DNA from: Escherichia coli | GTDB taxonomy: Bacteria > Pseudomonadota > Gammaproteobacteria > Enterobacterales > Enterobacteriaceae | NCBI RefSeq assembly: GCF_024223415.1 | Contig: NZ_CP100500.1 | Reading direction: 5' to 3' (one strand) | Length of the DNA stretch: 64,000 nucleotides | In this document: positions 614 through 46,241 of the stretch, one piece after another | Layout: every line of letters begins with the position of its first letter | How positions within the stretch are numbered: position 1 is the first letter of the stretch | Notes under the pieces: generated by a model | Database searches by the model: none | What the model was told of the DNA's origin: nothing | What the model saw: the letters and a program-made list of their open reading frames with translations, nothing else | Position numbers and translations under genes: made by a program

Positions 614-1357
614 TTAAGATGAAGCGTTCGCTATCTGAGCGTCGCTGAATGTGAAACCCGCCTGTTTAAGACGCTGGATTAAGCGGGGTACTGTCTCCCG
701 AACATGGTCATTAAAGTTGAGATAAAGAATACCGGCGGCATCAGAAGGCTGCTCAAGGTGTTGTTTCTGCAGGATGACCACGTTACTGCGACCGAGTGAA
801 GATAACAGCATCCCCATTTCTAAAACTACGTTTTGGCGTGCCCTGGGCTGGGCTGCTTCCTGGCCGTCTCTTTTGGCGTATCCCACATCATCGGGAGTGA
901 GGAGAACAATGCCGAAACGCGTCGCTGTCCGTCCCTGACCAATTTCACGTTCAAGCTCTTCAATTATCGTAAGCCCGGTCCCACCGGTATTCTGCAAAAT
1001 AAAATGGTCAGGTAATCCAAGCTTATGAAGAATAAGTTCAAGCTGCTCTTTTGCTACATGATCGTGACCGTGAACGATGAAAATCTTTTTTGCTGGTTCT
1101 TGCATCATGACTGGAGCGTTACCCAGGTGTTCATTAATAATGGCTTCAACCTCAGGTTTTGCCGCTTGTGAACCCTGAATCAAAATCGTTCCGGTGTGGT
1201 AAAGCGTTATGATGGCACCATTACTTAAACGATAACAATCATGACCGGTTTTGTTTTCTTCTCCGGTAACATCAAATCCGGATTCGACTAAAAATTGACG
1301 AAAAGTATCGACAGCGTATGGGTATTTGAGTGCCATTTCATTGAGTTCCTGCATCAT
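614..1357 (-). CDS. Two-domain protein: unknown ~85-aa N-terminal domain plus C-terminal TIR-like domain (FIVHGHD ... LLTPDDVG ... RARQNVVLEMG ... LGR motifs, as in the CAP12/PycTIR-type TIR-like family). Candidate defence/abortive-infection effector
   Basis: 247-aa ORF; motif pattern recalled from the predicted nucleotide-binding TIR-like family; gene is bracketed by an exact 15-bp direct repeat and followed by a hairpin with T-tract. Confidence 0.5.
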   Translation of the reverse strand: MMQELNEMALKYPYAVDTFRQFLVESGFDVTGEENKTGHDCYRLSNGAIITLYHTGTILIQGSQAAKPEVEAIINEHLGNAPVMMQEPAKKIFIVHGHDHVAKEQLELILHKLGLPDHFILQNTGGTGLTIIEELEREIGQGRTATRFGIVLLTPDDVGYAKRDGQEAAQPRARQNVVLEMGMLLSSLGRSNVVILQKQHLEQPSDAAGILYLNFNDHVRETVPRLIQRLKQAGFTFSDAQIANASS

Positions 1358-1410
1358 TGTGTTCCTGTAAAGTAAGCAATAGTTAACAAAGTTGCAACGA
1401 CAACGATCAC

Positions 1411-3477
1411 CTAATCTTTTCTGTAACGGTACGCCTCGAATCCTCCGGCGTTTAGTGGAATGCTCGTGGCCCAGTCAGGAACGGTTGCCAGTAACTGGCT
1501 GAGATGTTCTGCTGAGTAATCGGGTGAGTCAGGGGCCTCACTTATAATTTCATCGTGTACCGTCAGCACAATGCTGTAACCGGCATCTTCGATAAGCGGC
1601 ATGTTTCCGGCCAGAACGTCGCGGGCGGCCGCCTGGGTGACGTTCTCCACCAGCTTTCCGCCGTAGGTTTTGAGTCGTTGCCATTTACGCGAATAAGAGT
1701 TAACACCCATATAGGTGATATCCCCTTTTTCGATAACCGGAGACGGGTAGCATACAGCGCGTCCGGATGGTAGCTGTATGCGCAGCCACGCGCCATCGCG
1801 GCGGATTTTAAGATAACCGCAATACAATGTTTTTTGCGGTGTGGCGATTGCAGTGCGGACGGTGCGCTCCAGTTCGTACCAGAAATCGCAGGTCGCCGGG
1901 TGCGCCCTGCGCCACAGGCGCTTGAGCGAGTCACATGCGATGAATACACGCTCGGACAGGCCAAAGGTCGACTTACGTTTAACCGATTCGTCGTACCAGC
2001 TTTTCGCCTCGCGGATAACATCGCGGGGAATGTTTGGCAGTGCGGCGTTCGCCAGCTCGTCGAGATCGAGACCGTAAACCAGAGCAAAAGTGATGAAAGC
2101 CGATACACCACCTCCATAACCCAGACCGAGTTCCATGACTTTACCGATCTGACGCATGTGTTTATCAACATCATCTGGTGCAATATCGAAAGCTTTTGCA
2201 TACGCCAGTTTATATAAGTCCGGACCCGTTCCGGCGTCGTACTCTCTGAATGCATTCAGTTTCCATTCTTCTCCCGCCAGCCATGCCAGCATACGGCCTT
2301 CAATGTTCGACAAGTCACTTACCACCAGTTTTTTGCCTGTTGGCGCGATAATGCAGCCACGTAACGCTGAACTGGTTAGTTCCATGATATTGTCAAACAG
2401 CAGGTCTGCACATCCGGCTTTCAGTGCTTCGATGCCTTCGTCTATTTGTTCCTGTTTTAGTGAAGGGCGGGGAAGGTTCTGGGGCTGGAATAGCCGTCCG
2501 GCCCAACGACCGGTACGTGACGCCCCGCAGAACTGTAGCGTACCGCGTAAGCGCCCGTCGTGGCTTACGCCTTTCATCAGTGCCTTGTATTTACTGGTGC
2601 TGGTAGTACTGGCCTGCAGGCGGATAGCCAGCAGTTCTTTCACGGCAGATGGTAAATTGGGGTCGGCAATACGACGTTCCAGAGTACTGCGTTGCATGTC
2701 TGGTAGCTCCACACCGTAGGATTCAACAATGTGCTTAATCAACGCGTCCCGTTGTGTGGCTGCCTGCACTTCGCCATCAGTCATTTCCTGTGTACGCTTT
2801 GCCAGGCGCTTTTGCTCCTGGTCTACCGCTTCGATCGCAGCGCGCGCGAGTTGAATGTCCATGCAGACGCCCCGGTCGTTGATCTGCTGATCACGATGCC
2901 AGAGTGCCAGTTCTGTCCCCTGATAATTCCACTTCGGCAGACGTTTATAGACTTCGCGCATTGCCTCGATATCCAGTCCGGCGTAAGCAACAAAGCGCCG
3001 CCATTCTTCCGGGTGGGTTTTGCTGGTGGCCCGGCGCAGTTTGCTGTTTTTCGGGCGTGGTTTGCACAGTAGCTGAATTAGTGACTTGCCTTCTTTATCC
3101 TTCGCTTTGTCCTGCGGGACGCCCAGCACTTCGCAAAGAGCGCCCAGCGCCCCCGGAAGACCATGCGCCAGCGCCTGCACCATTGTGTCGCGCCAGCGTT
3201 CAGTAGCTGGTGACATGTCTGGCATACAATGACGAAGTATCGTGCGGTCAAAGTGCGAATTGTGCGCCCAAACCTCCACATCCGGGTTTTTGAGTGCGAG
3301 ACGTAATTCCGGGGGGATTTTTTCGCCTGCGGTCAGGTCCCACACCTGCACGGGATCGTTATTGATGGCCCAGGCAAAAAGCATAATTTCAGCGCCTTCT
3401 GCATATGCGTGGGTACCGTTTTTTATCGGTATTTCAGAGAAGGTTTCAAGATCGAGCCAGAGAATGTTTGCAGGCAA
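1411..3477 (-). CDS. Phage family-A DNA polymerase with N-terminal DnaQ-like 3'-5' exonuclease
   Basis: 688-aa ORF; exonuclease motif LDLETFS near the N-terminus; polymerase motifs [16 protein letters not shown] (motif B-like K...YG) and VHDEI (motif C-like). Confidence 0.85.
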
Positions 3478-3546
3478 AACAGGACCCTCCGTAAATTAAA
3501 CGGCTACAAAAAGCCCCTGACAGTGCAGGGGCGGGATTGATTTGAA

Positions 3547-4311
3547 TTAACGAGGTAAGGCTGGTGGAATGTATCTGCCGATGCGGTCTTCTATGGTCGG
3601 CAGAATGCACATGCTGTCGCTGAAGCGGTCATGCAACTGGTAAACCAGTTTAGAATCCATTTTTTCGAGAGCAGGCATTAACTGCGCCCGCCAGATTTCG
3701 TTGATGCGCCGGAAGTTATGACAGACGGCGCGGAGATTGTTGATGAACATTTCCTTCTCTGCGTCAGTGACTTCTGTCTGTGTTTTCTGAATACGCTTTG
3801 TGCTGCCATTCCGATAGAAGCGTTCCTGAGCAGCAACAGCCTCATCCACGGTTGGATAGCACCCTACGTAAACGCTCTTCTCTCCGTTCCATGCGTAGGC
3901 TCTGTACGGGTTGTATTTGCTCCGGTGATGGTAAACCATCTTCGGCAGACACTCCCTGTGTGGCGCCAGTATCGTGGAGGATTGCTGGTGCAGTTTGCGT
4001 TCGCACTCGATGAAGTATCGGCGGATCTGGCGGCCTTTTTCGTTGCGCTCCACCATCGCCAGTTCTTTGGCCGTGTCGAGGGTGAGGTGGTAGTCCTTAC
4101 AAAGAACATTTTTACGCTTTCCAGTTTTGGAAAACGTTACGATATAATCCTGATTTTCAACGAATTCATAGTCTGCAATTCGTGATGTAATCCACGCTGC
4201 AAACACTTTCCCTACCCCAAGGAATGCGTGCAGATCGCGAGCATTGCAGAGCAGGGTGGTTTCGTTGGCGATAGCGCCGTTGAAAACGGGGATGAGTTGA
4301 GTTGCCATCAC
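3547..4311 (-). CDS. Protein with AntA/AntB-type antirepressor N-terminal domain
   Basis: 254-aa ORF; N-terminal LIPVFNG ... LHAFLGVGKVFAAWITSRIADYEFVENQDY ... YHLTLDTAKELAMVERNEKGRQIRRYF resembles the AntA/AntB antirepressor domain. Confidence 0.55.
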   Translation of the reverse strand: MMATQLIPVFNGAIANETTLLCNARDLHAFLGVGKVFAAWITSRIADYEFVENQDYIVTFSKTGKRKNVLCKDYHLTLDTAKELAMVERNEKGRQIRRYFIECERKLHQQSSTILAPHRECLPKMVYHHRSKYNPYRAYAWNGEKSVYVGCYPTVDEAVAAQERFYRNGSTKRIQKTQTEVTDAEKEMFINNLRAVCHNFRRINEIWRAQLMPALEKMDSKLVYQLHDRFSDSMCILPTIEDRIGRYIPPALPR

Positions 4312-41307: not shown

Positions 41308-41883
41308 ATGAAGGTCGATAAAATCACGTCACCAGTGTGGGCTGACAGGGGTCATACGACCATAAACTGTATAGTGAAGTTTTCAGACGCGGAAACAGAA
41401 TGTGTATTTACAGCAAGTGCGGATGATCCTGAGTCTTACGGTCGTGAAATATTTGAAGCCTGCATAAGAGGTGATGCAGGGCCGGTAGGTGAGTACCGGG
41501 CAAATGATGATATGGCTGTGGAAGAAGCACGCAGGATGAAAAACGCGGAGATAAATGCCTGGCGTGATGCGATGGAGGCGTCAGGGTATGTTTTTGAGCA
41601 CAGAGGACGGAAATGGGATTATGGAAAGGAAACCATGACACGTCTTGGAATGTCGGCATCAGCGGCCAGAGGCGGTGTGTTGCCGGAAGGATTTTTCTGG
41701 ACGGACGCAGAGAATAATGATGTACCGATGACGGCAGATGAACTGATATCCCTGAGTGATGCTGCTGGTAAAGCGATGTTCAGGAAAGGCCTTGAAATAC
41801 ATATAAGGCAAAGGGAGATGAAAAAGGCAATAGCAGAACTGAGTGACAGTGAAACCATTCTGGCGTACAGGGTTGGATGGTGA
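41308..41883 (+). CDS. tfa: Tail fibre assembly/chaperone-like protein
   Basis: 191-aa ORF immediately after the fibre gene; assignment by position and weak similarity. Confidence 0.45.
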   Translation: MKVDKITSPVWADRGHTTINCIVKFSDAETECVFTASADDPESYGREIFEACIRGDAGPVGEYRANDDMAVEEARRMKNAEINAWRDAMEASGYVFEHRGRKWDYGKETMTRLGMSASAARGGVLPEGFFWTDAENNDVPMTADELISLSDAAGKAMFRKGLEIHIRQREMKKAIAELSDSETILAYRVGW

Positions 41884-42321: not shown

Positions 42322-43731
42322 ATGAAATTTATAATGGCAAAGAATGTATTGGCAATGGCGGTTACCGGTGCGCTGTTATGTTACTCTGTGGGGGTTATGG
42401 CAGAAGAGAGTTTTAATGTAGATGGATATGAGGTTACTCTGTATGATAATGGTGCGGCAGTAATATCAAAAGGTAATGATGTTAATCTTATTAATACTAT
42501 TACTGGAGCTAATACAGGGCGTATTGTCCCGAATGATTCTATTACGCGTGCTATATTAGCAGCTCCTGAGAATGCTAGGCATATTGTTGCTCAGGATTTG
42601 CTAACTTACCCCATCTACTCAGATGCATTAAAAGCCGAAAACATCAGAAATATAAAAGCAGAAGATATAAAGTCCATTGTTGATACAAAAGAATCACTAC
42701 AAAAAATAATCAAGCCAGAAAACAAGGATGATTATATCGCCGCTGTTAATGCTGGTGGTACCGCTGAGGATTTTATTAAAATTAGTAATACAACATCGGG
42801 ATTGTCATCATTGTATAAAAATGTAGTTGAAGGCCAGAATTTTGTTCTGGATTCATCAGGCCGAATCACTGCTGACGGAAGGGCTGACGGAAATGCTCAG
42901 ACAGTCCCTGTTAAAGAATTCGTCGTGGAGCTGGATAATCGTACCCGCAACCTTGGGGTTGAAGTGAAATCACAGGGAGACAGTCTGCGTGGTGAGATAG
43001 GTGGTGTATACAGAGATGCCCGTGCTCATACTGACAGTCAGGTCACAGCAGTACGTGATGAACTGAAGGCAGAGGGAGACAGTCTGCGCGGTGAGATAGG
43101 CGGTGTATACAGAGATGCCCGTGCTCATACTGACAGTCAGGTTACAGCAGTACGTGATGAACTCAGCAGGGATATTATTGCAGGCACATCGGCAGCGGTG
43201 GCGTATACGGATGCATCTTCTCTTGCTCTTCAGGATGAAATAAAAGAAAAAGCGGATGAAACAGTTCAGGTTTCCCGGGCTTATACAGATAAAAGTGTAC
43301 GGGATGCCCGTAAAGAAGCGAAAAGCCAGGCAGAACATCTCAGCGATGTGCTTGTGAAGAACAGGGCGCAGACGGATGCAGCAATAGCCTCAAATACAGC
43401 AGCGATAAGGAATAACAGTCATCGTCTGGATTTGACGGAAGCCTGGCAGAAGATGGCGACAGAGAGAATGAATAATATGCAGGAGCAGATTAAAGAGAAC
43501 CGGAAGGAGTTAAGGGAGAGTGCAGCCCAGAGCGCGGCACTGGCCGGTCTTTTCCAGCCATACAGTGTTGGAAAATTTAACGCGACAGCAGCCGTTGGTG
43601 GTTACCGTGATGAGCAGGCCATTGCGGTGGGCGTGGGCTACCGTTTCACAGAGAATGTGGCAGGAAAAGTTGCAGTTGCTGCAGGTGGGTCATCCGCATC
43701 GTGGAATGCTGGTGTGAATTTTGAGTTCTGA
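42322..43731 (+). CDS. Trimeric autotransporter adhesin-like protein (YadA-like C-terminal anchor); resembles prophage-encoded Eib immunoglobulin-binding proteins
   Basis: Signal peptide; coiled-coil stalk with 33-aa tandem repeat; C-terminal anchor [10 protein letters not shown] ... [20 protein letters not shown]. Confidence 0.7.
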
Positions 43732-43791
43732 CAGGTCAGGATTTAGATATCTGTCCCGGGGGAGTCCCCCGGGATATAATGAGGTACAGAG

Positions 43792-44247
43792 ATGCTGGAT
43801 ATAATCCTGGCGACGAGAGATATTTATTTTGAAAAAGCCCTGCGAGAGATATTTGGAACCGTAAGCAGTCGAATCAGATATATAGAAGATGCCATATCAG
43901 ACAGAAGAAGGGTGCAGTCAGGCAGGTCATTCAGATATTATTTTGTATTCTGTGATGATGAGTATACAGATATTGTTCGTATTCTTTTTACCGGAGAGGC
44001 CTGCTGTATTCTGAATAAGTCGATGCTGAATCTGAGAGCGGCCGGAGGTGTGTTGACGCTGGAAGAGCGCAGAGCGGTACTGAACCGGTATTACAGAGGT
44101 TTAAGTATTGCGGAGATTACAGAAGAGACGGGGCAGAATGACAAGACGGTATACGGTCATCTTCGTCGTGCACTGCAGCGGTCTGGATTCCGGAAGGGGC
44201 GTTTTATAAAGGGGAGAGAAGCTGCGGGGGATTCAGGTGTTGAATAA
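43792..44247 (+). CDS. Putative LuxR/GerE-type HTH transcriptional regulator
   Basis: C-terminal LTLEERRAVLNRYYRGLSIAEITEETGQNDKTVYGHLRRALQ fits a LuxR-type HTH. Confidence 0.4.
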   Translation: MLDIILATRDIYFEKALREIFGTVSSRIRYIEDAISDRRRVQSGRSFRYYFVFCDDEYTDIVRILFTGEACCILNKSMLNLRAAGGVLTLEERRAVLNRYYRGLSIAEITEETGQNDKTVYGHLRRALQRSGFRKGRFIKGREAAGDSGVE

Positions 44248-44358
44248 TGTATCTTATATTGTGATATCGGTGCTGCTGCTGTTATTTTTTGTTGTATTTG
44301 TGACGAATGGTTAAGAATAAAACATGAGTTGGTGATTATCAGGACAGGTTGCTTGTAT

Positions 44359-44454
44359 ATGAAGATAACAAAGGCGGCATTTATTTTTGCGCTGTCAGTG
44401 TGGAGTGTTGCTGTGATATGTCTTTTATTATTTGTACTGGTTGTTCTGGGATAG
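44359..44454 (+). CDS. Very small hydrophobic peptide (31 aa), possible small membrane protein
   Basis: Own translation MKITKAAFIFALSVWSVAVICLLLFVLVVLG in an AT-rich spacer. Confidence 0.2.
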   Translation: MKITKAAFIFALSVWSVAVICLLLFVLVVLG

Positions 44455-44630
44455 CTATAGTGGAATTATTATTTTTTTAAGACTATGGTTTATATTTTTA
44501 TTCGGCAATATTTCTGTAAACAATTAAATATCAGAAAGGCGTGTTGTATGCGTGAACACGCCTGAGTATGTATACAGAGATTGTTAATTTGGAGAGAATA
44601 ATTACAGTTGTTATTTATTTGACGTCCTGA

Positions 44631-44879
44631 TTAGTGAAAAAACCAGTCATCAGCAGTTTCCCAGACTTCCTGCAGCGTTTCCTGTATGAACTTCTGAGCG
44701 TTTTCTTTATCTACGGCTCTTAAAATTGTCAGTCCGTCATTACTGGCGGATTTTACTATAACCTCCACATCGTCATATCGTTTTCTGATACGGCGAGACA
44801 TTTCCTGTTGTAGAGCAGGTACAGAGCCTTTTGGCATTTTGCTGAATTTTTCTTTAGCGATACAGATCTCAATACGCAT
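44631..44879 (-). CDS. DinI-like protein (prophage-encoded DinI family)
   Basis: [35 protein letters not shown] ... [14 protein letters not shown] resembles E. coli DinI as recalled. Confidence 0.7.
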
Positions 44880-45184
44880 AAAAGTCCCTCTACACTGTGT
44901 TTGTATACAGTATTATTTTTAACTGTATGGATAAACAGTGTCAAGGTTTTCAATTTCGAAGCGGGAGTCAAGGGCTTTGTGTTGCTGAACTTATGCAAAA
45001 TTTTTTTGCATCATAAATCCAACAACACATTCAATAACACATTACTGCATAACCATGAAAATAAATGTATTTTTATTTAATTTCACACATATCACAATTG
45101 ATGCATTTTTTAGTGATTAACAGCGCCATAAGGAAACTCTCAAAACAACACAAACCGGGCGGGCATTATACGCGCATTCTTTAC

Positions 45185-46033
45185 TCAAACCAGTTTTTTC
45201 ACCAGTGCCTCGCTGTGACGAATGCGCTCAGGGGCCAGTTCGAGATCCTGCTGGATTAGCGCAATGAACAGCAAATCTGTAAGCATTCCCTGAGCGTGAC
45301 AAGCGGAGATCGACGCACTATTCGTCGCCTGTTCTTCGGCAATAGTATACAGGCAATGGGATGCTCGTTGTTGCAGAGCATTCGGCGTGAAACCGGTAAT
45401 TGCCAGCACCTTTCCACCCACGCGCAGCATCTCATCCGCCGCGAGATTCAACTCACGTCGTACACCAGTGTAAGAGATGGCTAATAACAGATCGTCCGGT
45501 GAGGATGCCTGTACAGTAGCGAGCAACGCATGCATATCGCGTTCTGCGGCAGCATTGAAACCAATCTTCATCAGTTTCCAGGCAAAGTTTTGCGCTACCA
45601 GACCCGAAGCGCCAATGCCAGTCAAAATAATCCGCCGTGCAGAACGCAACATCACCACGCATTCATGTAATTTCTCTTCACTGTTAACGTTCAGTGTCGC
45701 ATACATGGCAGCCGTGTTTTCTTTTATGAGCTTTTCACCCACCAGTCGCAGCGGATCATCACCGCGAATTTGGTTATGAATGGGGACAGAAGGGGATTCC
45801 GGCTGGCTCGCCAGAGCTTCGCTTAACGCGAGTTTTAAGGCAGGAAAACCTTTATAGCCGAGTTTTTGCGCGAACTTCACGACGCTGGACTGACTGACTC
45901 CGGCTTCGTTGGCCAGTTGCTGAGAGCTTAAATGGCGCGCCGTATCAGGTTGTAGCAGCAGATAATCCGCCAGTTTTTTATCACTCTGGGCAAGCCCCTG
46001 GTAACGCTGACGGATACGAAGTAAGCCGTTCAT
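45185..46033 (-). CDS. yfhH: RpiR-family transcriptional regulator (HTH plus SIS domain), YfhH-like
   Basis: HTH SQQLANEAGVSQSSVVKFAQKLGYKGF and SIS-domain region; conserved neighbour of pgpC/tadA; start taken at MNGLLRIRQ. Confidence 0.85.
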   Translation of the reverse strand: MNGLLRIRQRYQGLAQSDKKLADYLLLQPDTARHLSSQQLANEAGVSQSSVVKFAQKLGYKGFPALKLALSEALASQPESPSVPIHNQIRGDDPLRLVGEKLIKENTAAMYATLNVNSEEKLHECVVMLRSARRIILTGIGASGLVAQNFAWKLMKIGFNAAAERDMHALLATVQASSPDDLLLAISYTGVRRELNLAADEMLRVGGKVLAITGFTPNALQQRASHCLYTIAEEQATNSASISACHAQGMLTDLLFIALIQQDLELAPERIRHSEALVKKLV

Positions 46034-46241
46034 ATCTTTCCTCGCGATGAAATAGTGGCGACAACAGGCAATATGAGACACACGCGAGTGAATTTTATAT
46101 TCCATTGCCGCTAATTGCCATGAATTAAAAATTCCAGTTAGCCATGATGCGGTCGATTGTTGCCGGAAAAGTGATGATCTATCTGTTAGGCTATGTAGTA
46201 GCGAAAATTAATCAGGATGTTTCAGTCCAGAGGAGTATGGT

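What the first reader, a model, noticed from the sequence alone, without database searches (positions are those of the whole stretch)
44250..44630. AT-rich spacer with several very short hydrophobic ORFs next to the DinI-like gene
Between the regulator and the DinI-like gene the sequence is AT-rich and contains short ORFs encoding almost purely hydrophobic peptides (for example MKITKAAFIFALSVWSVAVICLLLFVLVVLG). These could be type I toxin-like small membrane proteins or noise; the DinI-like gene suggests modulation of the host SOS response.
Basis: seen in the sequence. Interest (0 to 1): 0.3.

Follow-up and report, generated by a model that had tools for sequence, protein, structure and literature searches.

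The report
Small membrane protein of adhesin cassette
The AT-rich gap holds one probably real, unannotated 31-residue membrane protein gene that belongs to a prophage adhesin-plus-regulator cassette, while the other tiny hydrophobic reading frames are unproven or by-products of T-rich DNA, and nothing points to a toxin-antitoxin pair.

Summary
Window 44248-44630 is AT-rich (GC 0.32-0.38) and T/G-skewed, and it carries the quoted hydrophobic ORFs.

The spacer is a composite at the right end of a lambdoid prophage. The left part (to about 44466) travels with the upstream Eib-like trimeric adhesin and HTH regulator in 183 E. coli genomes. The right part is the 3' region and terminator of the convergent, LexA-boxed DinI-like gene.

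The quoted peptide, ORF2 (44359-44454, 31 aa), is most likely a diverged counterpart of ORF-60 (phrog_9340).
- ORF-60 is a 41-43 aa single-pass protein found after eib and orf-156 in P-Eib phages.
- It is under purifying selection (pN/pS 0.06-0.36).
- The window regulator is a remote ORF-156 homologue (hhalign E 1.8e-7).
- ORF2 aligns to ORF-60 without gaps and with flush C-termini (3 of 200,000 shuffles; hhalign P 4e-4).

ORF1 (44237-44314, 25 aa) is unresolved. The other short ORFs look like noise.

Type I toxin features are absent: no family match, no antitoxin RNA, no own promoter, no structured RNA. The function of ORF2 is unknown. My best guess is an operonic membrane partner in the adhesin/regulator cassette.

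Overall this is a new member of a known but uncharacterised family, of modest interest.

The parts
42322..43731 (+). Eib-like trimeric autotransporter adhesin (469 aa), first gene of the cassette
   Evidence: YadA_anchor PF03895, E 1.2e-16. It is 57% identical over the C-terminal 118 aa to the adhesin of an ORF-156/ORF-60 locus. RefSeq names it 'YadA-like family protein'.
43754..43774 (.). Perfect 10-nt-arm hairpin between the adhesin gene and the regulator
   Evidence: 'stem_loop' features are annotated at the same position in P-EibC and P-EibE.
43792..44247 (+). 151-aa HTH regulator, a remote homologue of ORF-156 (phrog_6585)
   Evidence: Sigma70_r4_2, E 2.2e-7. BLASTP to orf-156C: 22% identity, E 4e-5. 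hhalign to the ORF-156 profile: probability 93.7%, E 1.8e-7 over 129 columns. phrog_6585, E 3.3e-4. A low-confidence model shows beta-alpha x4 plus HTH, with weak FixJ/RcsB-type matches.
44237..44314 (+). ORF1, 25 aa (V/M)LNNVSYIVISVLLLLFFVVFVTNG; status unresolved
   Evidence: GTG start overlaps the end of the regulator and has GGGGGA 5 nt upstream. The only variant seen is an in-frame loss of one CTG repeat unit. No similarity to ORF-60, and similarity to ORF2 does not reach significance (p 0.06-0.08). Not in the 15-billion-protein collection.
44359..44454 (+). ORF2, 31-aa single-pass small membrane protein, probable diverged ORF-60 (phrog_9340) counterpart
   Evidence: MAFFT aligns it without gaps and with flush C-termini; T, A, F, L, V, W are invariant. 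C-terminus-anchored PSSM: z 5.0, 3 of 200,000 shuffles reach the score. No natural 31-mer scores above 11, against 37 for ORF2. hhalign P 4.4e-4. Local HMM only 6 bits, p 0.011. Same position as ORF-60 in other loci. Gene callers call it on more than 200 contigs, and its variants are all conservative (V27I, L30M, I20M, F10L). The upstream TTG start is lost in some strains.
44464..44470 (.). Homology breakpoint between the adhesin/regulator/small-ORF module and the DinI-side sequence
   Evidence: In about 160 genomes identity ends here, 10-15 nt after the ORF2 stop codon.
44537..44563 (-). 9-bp GC-rich hairpin followed by UUUCUGAUAUUU on the - strand; likely terminator of the DinI-like gene
   Evidence: It is a different hairpin, but in the same position, as the GGGGAG/CTCCCC hairpin between ORF-60 and DinI in L020 and L010.
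44631..44879 (-). DinI-like gene (82 aa), a separate convergent module
   Evidence: PF06183, E 2.3e-19. Related DNA occurs in 2084 E. coli genomes and 103 phage records, including P-EibC.
44895..44938 (.). Two LexA-box-like CTGT-N8-ACAG sites upstream of the DinI-like gene
   Evidence: sites at 44895-44910 and 44923-44938; 0.68 expected in the whole window..

Best explanation
The spacer has three parts.

(1) 44359-44454 encodes ORF2, a 31-residue single-pass inner-membrane protein. It has a short basic N-terminus (K2, K5), probably cytoplasmic, followed by about 25 hydrophobic residues. ORF2 is the diverged counterpart of ORF-60 (phrog_9340) and is the last gene of a three-gene lysogenic-conversion cassette: Eib-like trimeric adhesin, ORF-156-like HTH regulator, small membrane protein. 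It is most likely transcribed together with the regulator.

(2) 44237-44314 (ORF1) may be a second small membrane protein whose start is coupled to the regulator's stop, or it may be a by-product of T-rich DNA. This is unresolved.

(3) About 44470-44630 is non-coding. It carries the terminator of the convergent, SOS-controlled DinI-like gene, and the ORFs there are noise.

Shown here: synteny, remote homology of the regulator, the alignment statistics for ORF2, and purifying selection on the ORF-60 family.

Inferred: that ORF2 is translated, its membrane topology, and co-transcription with the regulator.

Speculative: what it does. My preferred guess is that it works through specific helix-helix contacts, with itself or with a partner, to modulate the cassette's regulator or adhesin output, rather than acting as a membrane poison. 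I rate this at about 0.3, given that the gene is real.
For: - Module boundary. 183 of 5426 complete E. coli genomes share regulator + ORF1 + ORF2 at 95-100% identity. In most of them identity stops 10-15 nt after the ORF2 stop, whatever lies beyond.
- Family precedent. GenBank AF151674 (P-EibC) annotates eibC, then orf-156C, then orf-60C. The same order, YadA_anchor protein then a 157-175 aa protein then a 41-44 aa protein, often followed by a convergent DinI gene and host DNA, occurs in L010, L011, L014-L022.
- ORF-60 is a real coding gene. pN/pS is 0.06-0.36 with pS of 0.2-0.7. Variable sites by codon position are 11/6/25. The core GAMCFMLFVWLGG is near-invariant.
- Regulator homology. hhalign probability 93.7%, E 1.8e-7. 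phrog_6585 E 3.3e-4.
- ORF2 versus ORF-60. Ungapped alignment with flush C-termini. Anchored score z 5.0, 3 of 200,000 shuffles. None of 1722 natural C-terminal 31-mers and none of 157 hydrophobic 31-mers comes close. hhalign P 4.4e-4, 36% identity over 25 columns.
- ORF2 variants are all conservative hydrophobic swaps.
- No + strand terminator or promoter between the regulator and ORF2.
Against: - Standard profile searches do not place ORF2 in the family. There is no phrog_9340 hit at E <= 1, and the local HMM score is 6 bits with p about 0.011.
- No intermediates exist. An exhaustive HMMER search of 1.84 billion proteins finds only copies of the window regulator, so homology of the small ORF rests on 31 residues plus synteny.
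- All copies of the window-type cassette are at least 95% identical, so there is no independent coding signature for ORF2 or ORF1.
- The Shine-Dalgarno is weak (AGG 10 nt upstream of the ATG), and the gap to the regulator is 111 nt, against -4 to +53 nt in ORF-60 loci.
- RefSeq does not annotate ORF2.
- An IS3 element interrupts ORF2 in one strain, so it is dispensable there.
- Regulators of this family occur without the small ORF (L012, L013).
- There are no expression data.
Confidence: 0.6

Rival explanations
1. All the short ORFs, including ORF2, are untranslated by-products of a T/G-rich, C-poor spacer. The resemblance to ORF-60 would then be chance between two hydrophobic strings, or ORF2 is a decaying remnant.
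For: Every + strand frame here yields hydrophobic peptides. The composition is extreme. PGAP annotates nothing. Local HMM p is only 0.011. The SD is weak. An IS insertion in ORF2 is tolerated.
Against: An ORF of at least 31 aa with GRAVY >= 2 arises in only 0.8% of shuffles. Anchored similarity reaches 3 of 200,000 shuffles, and no natural peptide comes near. hhalign P is 4.4e-4. ORF2 has the same position and strand as a demonstrably selected gene, next to a homologous regulator. The frame is intact, with only conservative changes, in more than 200 contigs.
Confidence: 0.17
2. ORF2 (and/or ORF1) is a type I toxin: a membrane-depolarising peptide whose mRNA is held in check by an antisense small RNA.
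For: Size, a single hydrophobic helix and prophage location resemble TisB, DinQ, ShoB or Ldr-type toxins (my own knowledge). There is one - strand promoter-like site at 44363-44335 (TTCATA-17-GATAAT, 9 of 12 matches), which would make an RNA antisense to the ORF2 leader and ORF1. An SOS-regulated gene lies next door.
Against: No Pfam/NCBIfam toxin family hit. No Rfam antitoxin RNA at E <= 10. Promoter-like hits are fewer than chance (3 found, 4.5 expected). The antisense strand is essentially unstructured (z +0.85) and the sense strand is unremarkable (z -0.55). There is no own promoter. ORF-60 relatives are operonic with the regulator and can overlap its stop codon. The near-invariant TM core of ORF-60 suggests a specific interaction rather than generic membrane damage. 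It is single-copy in the window.
Confidence: 0.07
3. ORF1 is also a real gene. The cassette would then end with two small hydrophobic proteins, with ORF1 translationally coupled to the regulator and ORF2 following. This can hold together with the best explanation.
For: The GTG start overlaps the regulator's last codons and has GGGGGA 5 nt upstream, the same kind of overlap seen between regulator and small ORF in L014. GRAVY is 2.05. Two strongly hydrophobic ORFs occur in 5.5% of shuffles. The only indel seen keeps the frame.
Against: No homologue anywhere. No similarity to ORF-60 (p 0.19; hhalign P 0.15). No gene call in 15 billion proteins. The in-frame indel is slippage of a CTG repeat and would be in frame anyway. 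There are no charged flanking residues. ORF-60 loci have no second small ORF.
Confidence: 0.25

Closest known systems
ORF-60 of P-Eib prophages (orf-60C, AAF63037, GenBank AF151674; 'oRF-60D'; PHROG phrog_9340, function unknown)
   Same: It is the gene immediately after an ORF-156-type regulator, which itself follows an Eib-type trimeric adhesin, near the attR end and often facing a DinI-like gene. It has a basic N-terminus and one TM helix that ends at the C-terminus. Positions T, A, F, L, V, W are shared in an ungapped alignment.
   Different: ORF2 is 31 aa against 41-43 aa. It lacks the long basic stretch (GRKRY) and the hallmark core GAMCFMLFVWLGG (only 5 of 13 core residues are kept). It does not reach the phrog_9340 HMM. 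It sits 111 nt, not -4 to +53 nt, after the regulator, with ORF1 in between.
ORF-156 regulators of P-Eib phages (phrog_6585)
   Same: The upstream partner gene is a remote homologue over nearly its full length, with shared motifs ILATR..Y.E..L, a conserved Asp after the third strand, and LT..E...YR...E.G.N.KTV.
   Different: Only 22-27% identity. The window protein matches Pfam Sigma70_r4_2 whereas ORF-156C matches no Pfam family. No intermediates are known.
Type I toxins of E. coli (TisB, DinQ, ShoB, Ldr, Hok, Ibs, ZorO)
   Same: Length of 20-50 aa, a single hydrophobic helix, and frequent prophage or SOS-associated neighbourhoods (my own knowledge).
   Different: No family match, no antitoxin RNA, no own promoter or structured leader, and an operonic position behind a regulator.
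ECF sigma / single-pass anti-sigma gene pairs, and small membrane modulators of regulators (e.g. MgrB-PhoQ)
   Same: A region-4-type HTH protein is followed on the same strand, sometimes with overlapping stop and start codons, by a single-pass membrane protein. This is a resemblance in gene arrangement only.
   Different: The regulator has no sigma region 2, and its weak fold matches are to FixJ/NarL-type response regulators. The small protein has only 5-20 cytoplasmic residues, too few for a known anti-sigma domain. No interaction has been tested.

Membership tests
ORF-60 / phrog_9340 small membrane protein | Significant match to the family profile | tested here: inconclusive
   No phrog_9340 hit at E <= 1. 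Own local HMM gives 6.0 bits, with 226 of 20,000 shuffles at least as good. hhalign gives P 4.4e-4 but probability only 33%. The C-terminus-anchored ungapped score has z 5.0, reached by 3 of 200,000 shuffles, and no natural peptide comes near it.
ORF-60 / phrog_9340 small membrane protein | Core motif (Y)T(T/A)GAMCFMLFVWLGG | tested here: not met
   ORF2 has ITKAAFIFALSVWSV. Only T, A, F, L, V, W are retained.
ORF-60 / phrog_9340 small membrane protein | Position: same strand, directly after an ORF-156-type regulator that follows a YadA-anchor adhesin | tested here: met
   Window gene order 42322-43731, 43792-44247, 44359-44454, compared with L009-L011 and L014-L022. Regulator homology.
ORF-60 / phrog_9340 small membrane protein | Architecture: basic N-terminus plus one TM helix running to the C-terminus, 41-43 aa | tested here: met
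   K2 and K5 followed by 25 uncharged residues, with C-termini flush in the alignment. ORF2 is shorter, at 31 aa.
ORF-60 / phrog_9340 small membrane protein | Purifying selection on the coding frame | tested here: inconclusive
   Shown for the canonical family. For ORF2 only four conservative amino-acid variants exist among near-identical copies.
Type I toxin-antitoxin system | Toxin belongs to a described toxin family | tested here: not met
   No Pfam or NCBIfam hit apart from a spurious Doppel match at E 0.016. PADLOC gives nothing.
Type I toxin-antitoxin system | Antisense or divergent small RNA gene with its own promoter and terminator | tested here: not met
   Rfam gives nothing at E <= 10. 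There is one weak - strand promoter-like site, fewer than chance. The antisense RNA is unstructured, z +0.85. Computational evidence only.
Type I toxin-antitoxin system | Independent toxin transcript with a structured leader | tested here: not met
   No + strand promoter-like site in 44248-44358. Fold z -0.55.
Type I toxin-antitoxin system | Toxicity on over-expression | not testable with these tools
   Needs an experiment.
DinI family (neighbouring gene) | DinI domain and SOS (LexA) control | tested here: met
   PF06183 E 2.3e-19 and NF007893 E 7e-20, though the latter is below the equivalog cut-off. Two CTGT-N8-ACAG sites lie upstream. LexA binding itself was not tested.

The most novel reading that the evidence does not exclude
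The Eib-type adhesin cassettes end with a conserved two-gene switch. An atypical FixJ/NarL-like regulator with a sigma-region-4-type HTH would be paired with a 31-43 aa single-pass membrane protein. The small protein would tether or gate the regulator at the membrane and so couple adhesin expression to envelope or growth state. EibG synthesis is known to respond to static versus shaken growth (PMC4352079). The window would carry a deeply diverged second lineage of this switch, possibly with an extra peptide (ORF1).
Probability: 0.12. Interest if true: 0.55.

Novelty: new member of a known kind. Interest (0 to 1): 0.3.

Why it matters
Small membrane proteins are routinely missed. RefSeq leaves this one unannotated in all of the listed carrier genomes.

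If ORF2 is real, it shows that the adhesin, regulator and small-protein order of the P-Eib prophages persists in a second, highly diverged lineage. That lineage is found in about 3% of complete E. coli genomes, many of them avian or extra-intestinal isolates, and it often lies beside the aerobactin island.

Conservation of gene order across that much divergence argues that the small protein has a function tied to the cassette. It also names a concrete candidate for the unexplained regulation of Eib-type adhesins.

The result also removes a false lead. There is no sign of a toxin-antitoxin pair, and the DinI-like gene is an unrelated neighbouring module.

Tried and rejected
- Rfam on 43000-46000 at E <= 10: only three spurious eukaryotic or archaeal families.
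- Window-type spacer and regulator against the phage and plasmid collections (blastn and tblastn): no match.
- IMG/VR scan with the regulator: one near-identical locus only.
- Word-based and exhaustive HMMER searches with the regulator: only copies or fragments of itself plus generic HTH hits, so no intermediates to bridge to ORF-156.
- Profile search with ORF-60 plus ORF2: more canonical ORF-60 members and ORF2 variants. The one apparent intermediate (P0069, RRRYTTGA...) sits in an unrelated metagenomic context and was rejected as chance.
- ORF1 as a duplicate of ORF2: not significant at DNA or protein level (p 0.06-0.08).
- ORF1 as an ORF-60 relative: rejected.
- The 41-aa TTG-extended form of ORF2: rejected, because the TTG is CTG in some strains.
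- RNA structure on either strand of the ORF region: not different from shuffles.
- PADLOC defence models: nothing.
- The breakpoint at about 44466 as a natural module end: weakened, because in many genomes an IS256 copy follows soon after. However, loci with different downstream sequence share about 65 more nt among themselves and still diverge from the window at the same point.
- Literature: no paper in the library mentions orf-60, orf-156 or the peptide strings. The original Sandt & Hill 2000 paper (PMC97405) is not held.
- Regulator structure: pLDDT of only 61, so fold matches (FixJ, RcsB, DesR, E about 1e-3) are used only as a hint.

Full report
**Context**

The window is E. coli chromosome carrying a lambdoid prophage. 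Its right arm ends next to yfhH, a MurR/RpiR-family gene at 45185-46105. The last prophage genes run as follows:
- tail fibre, then a DUF4376 protein (41308-41883);
- a YadA-anchor trimeric adhesin (42322-43731, +);
- a 151-aa HTH protein (43792-44247, +);
- the spacer in question;
- a DinI-like gene on the opposite strand (44631-44879).

Prophage homology ends near 44946. RefSeq annotates nothing between the HTH gene and the DinI-like gene in any of the listed genomes.

**Observation**

The spacer is AT-rich (GC 0.32-0.38) and strongly skewed towards G and T on the + strand. Composition of 44230-44640 is T 40%, C 9.5%.

Two are strongly hydrophobic. ORF1 is GTG 44237-44314, 25 aa, GRAVY 2.05. 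ORF2 is ATG 44359-44454, 31 aa, the quoted peptide.

In 2000 dinucleotide-preserving shuffles, an ORF of at least 31 aa with GRAVY >= 2 occurs in 0.8%. One of at least 25 aa occurs in 2.75%. Two hydrophobic ORFs occur in 5.5%. The other four ORFs are only moderately hydrophobic, overlap ORF2 or the DinI terminator, mostly start with TTG, and are what a 40%-T sequence yields in any frame.

**The spacer is a composite**

A blastn search of 44230-44640 against 5426 complete E. coli genomes finds 183 carriers at 95-100% identity. Only 22 match end to end. In the rest, identity covers the regulator's end, ORF1 and ORF2 and stops 10-15 nt after the ORF2 stop.

In those genomes the adhesin, regulator and small ORFs lie in an IS-rich island beside the aerobactin genes, not in this prophage.

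The right-hand part (44467-44950) behaves differently. From about 44600 onwards it matches DinI-like genes of 2084 genomes and 103 phage records at 70-84% identity. It contains a 9-bp GC-rich hairpin at 44537-44563, followed on the minus strand by UUUCUGAUAUUU. That is the likely terminator of the DinI-like gene.

So ORF1 and ORF2 belong with the adhesin and regulator, and the rest belongs with DinI.

**The lead: the P-Eib cassette**

One of the phage records matching the DinI side is P-EibC from E. coli ECOR-9 (AF151674). Its GenBank annotation reads eibC, stem-loop, orf-156C, orf-60C.

ORF-60C ends in a transmembrane stretch...GRKRYTTGAMCFMLFVWLGGVVALFTAAAVLLQ. The same small ORF follows the ORF-156 homologue in phage PhiR12_1 and is followed there directly by a convergent DinI gene. 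It also follows the ORF-156 homologue in P-EibE.

A protein search recovers about 50 family members, all from E. coli. Most begin 41-43 residues before the stop codon, with varied basic N-termini (MMNKDRDRRYGRKRY, MKQANMKYGKKCY, MSSSGNQANKKRRY, MEQKKIRCGRRKY). PHROGs holds the family as phrog_9340 (43 positions) and ORF-156 as phrog_6585, both of unknown function.

Genomic look-ups for three divergent members show a constant order: YadA_anchor protein, a 157-175 aa protein, then the 41-42 aa protein. The gap to the regulator is -4 to +53 nt. In L020 and L021 a convergent DinI gene and host DNA follow. That is the architecture of the window.

About 95 complete E. coli genomes carry this canonical form, which PGAP sometimes annotates as a hypothetical protein.

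**ORF-60 is a real gene**

Over the last 32 codons of six loci, pN/pS is 0.06-0.36 while pS reaches 0.4-0.7. Variable sites fall 11/6/25 on codon positions 1/2/3. The core GAMCFMLFVWLGG is almost invariant at the protein level despite near-saturated synonymous change.

**Does the window carry the same cassette?**

- Adhesin: shares the C-terminal anchor and stalk, 57% identity over 118 aa.
- Regulator: 22% identical to ORF-156C by BLASTP (E 4e-5). It matches a six-member ORF-156 profile with hhalign probability 93.7%, E 1.8e-7, over 129 columns. It hits phrog_6585 at E 3.3e-4.
- ORF2: MAFFT places it against the ORF-60 family with no internal gap and with the C-termini flush. T, A, F, L, V and W are invariant across all 17 sequences.

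The statistics for ORF2 depend on the test used:
- a local HMM gives only 6 bits, with 226 of 20,000 composition-preserving shuffles doing as well;
- an ungapped score anchored at the C-terminus gives z 5.0, with 3 of 200,000 shuffles as good;
- none of 1722 natural C-terminal 31-mers or 157 hydrophobic 31-mers from the window and three loci exceeds 11, against 37 for ORF2;
- hhalign gives P 4.4e-4 in the same register.

ORF1 shows nothing in the same tests (p 0.19; P 0.15).

Taking sequence and position together, I rate ORF2 at about 75-80% likely to be the diverged ORF-60 counterpart. It fails the family's hallmark motif and the PHROG model, so I call it a remote relative rather than a plain member.

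**Other evidence on ORF2 and ORF1**

ORF2 is in the 15-billion-protein collection. It has been called on more than 200 contigs, with four sequence variants that differ only by V27I, L30M, I20M or F10L. The upstream TTG that would give a 41-aa form is CTG in some strains, so the ATG is the start.

Against ORF2: the Shine-Dalgarno is weak (AGG 10 nt upstream), the gap to the regulator is unusually long, and an IS3 element splits ORF2 in strain SFE8.

ORF1 has a plausible coupled start: its GTG overlaps the regulator's last codons, with GGGGGA 5 nt upstream. But it has no relatives and no gene call. Its only variant is a CTG-repeat slip, which is in frame by construction. It is not a detectable duplicate of ORF2. 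I leave it at about 25%.

**Type I toxin reading**

- No hit to any Pfam, NCBIfam or PADLOC model.
- No Rfam family at E <= 10.
- No + strand promoter-like site between the regulator and ORF2. There is one weak minus-strand site (44363-44335), in a region where 4.5 sites are expected by chance.
- No RNA structure beyond shuffles on either strand (z -0.55 and +0.85).
- The relatives are operonic with the regulator.

This does not exclude toxicity on over-expression, which many small hydrophobic proteins show. It does remove the specific features of a type I system. I give it about 0.07.

**How it most likely works**

Shown: gene order, remote homology of the regulator and ORF2, and selection on the canonical family.

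Inferred: ORF2 is transcribed with the regulator, since there is no terminator or promoter between them. It probably inserts as an N-in single-pass helix.

A low-confidence model of the regulator (pLDDT 61) has four beta-alpha units followed by a three-helix HTH. Its best, weak, structural matches are full-length FixJ, RcsB, DesR and EvgA response regulators, and the HTH alone superposes on ECF sigma region 4. The near-invariant TM core of ORF-60 points to a specific helix-helix contact rather than generic membrane damage.

My preferred but speculative mechanism is therefore a small membrane partner that modulates the cassette's regulator or the adhesin output.

Two observations caution against an obligate pairing. 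The regulator occurs without the small ORF and without the adhesin in Stx1a phages and phage 2B8. The TM half of ORF-60 occurs fused to an unrelated N-terminus, without either partner, in L024.

**The DinI-like gene**

It is a true DinI-family member. Two CTGT-N8-ACAG sites lie upstream at 44895-44910 and 44923-44938, against 0.68 expected in the whole 64 kb. It is a common, separate module at the ends of lambdoid prophages. Its presence says nothing about the small ORFs.

**Verdict**

- Observation: confirmed.
It is a small membrane protein, but not noise and not a type I toxin.
- Novelty: a remote new member of a known but uncharacterised small-protein family.
- Interest: modest (0.3).

No paper in the searchable library discusses these ORFs.

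Noticed in passing
window 44895-44910 and 44923-44938: Two LexA-box-like CTGT-N8-ACAG motifs lie directly upstream of the DinI-like gene, inside a 25-nt imperfect inverted repeat (44887-44911 / 44922-44946). Only 0.68 such motifs are expected in the whole 64 kb.
   Followed up: partly
window 42960-43163: The Eib-like adhesin gene contains a 99-nt tandem repeat (2.1 copies, 93% matches). It encodes a duplicated segment of about 33 aa (…[30 protein letters not shown]…) in the stalk.
   Followed up: no
window 43754-43774: A perfect 10-nt-arm hairpin (TCCCGGGGGA/TCCCCCGGGA) lies between the adhesin gene and the regulator, followed at once by TATAAT. This is the position where stem-loops are annotated in P-EibC and P-EibE.
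   Followed up: no
L003 (NZ_CP173446) and about 160 other E. coli genomes: The same adhesin/regulator/ORF1/ORF2 module sits outside any prophage, in an IS-rich island next to the aerobactin genes (iucA). It is often interrupted by IS66, IS4 or IS256 elements. Many carriers are avian isolates.
   Followed up: partly
L004 (NZ_CP051219, strain SFE8), equivalent to window ~44367: An IS3-family element is inserted inside ORF2, a few codons after its start. ORF2 is therefore dispensable in that strain.
   Followed up: partly
L024/L025 4001-4135: A 44-aa protein carries the ORF-60 TM half (GAMCFMLFVWLGTVV…MMQ) behind an unrelated N-terminus. It follows a Gp38_N tail-fibre gene and faces DinI, with no adhesin or regulator. 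It is probably a recombination remnant.
   Followed up: no
L012/L013 3001-3543: Stx1a-converting phages and phage 2B8 encode a 180-aa ORF-156-like regulator with a C-terminal extension. They have no adhesin gene and no small TM ORF downstream.
   Followed up: partly
L002 (NZ_CP128970) versus window 44946 onward: The same prophage right end (adhesin to DinI, 99% identical) abuts yecD/aspS in some strains and yfhH in the window. The element therefore occupies different chromosomal sites.
   Followed up: no
L001 (NZ_OY754357) 1323-3938: In the closest relative of the window, an IS66/ISCro1 element lies between the DUF4376 gene and the adhesin gene. It is absent from the window.
   Followed up: no
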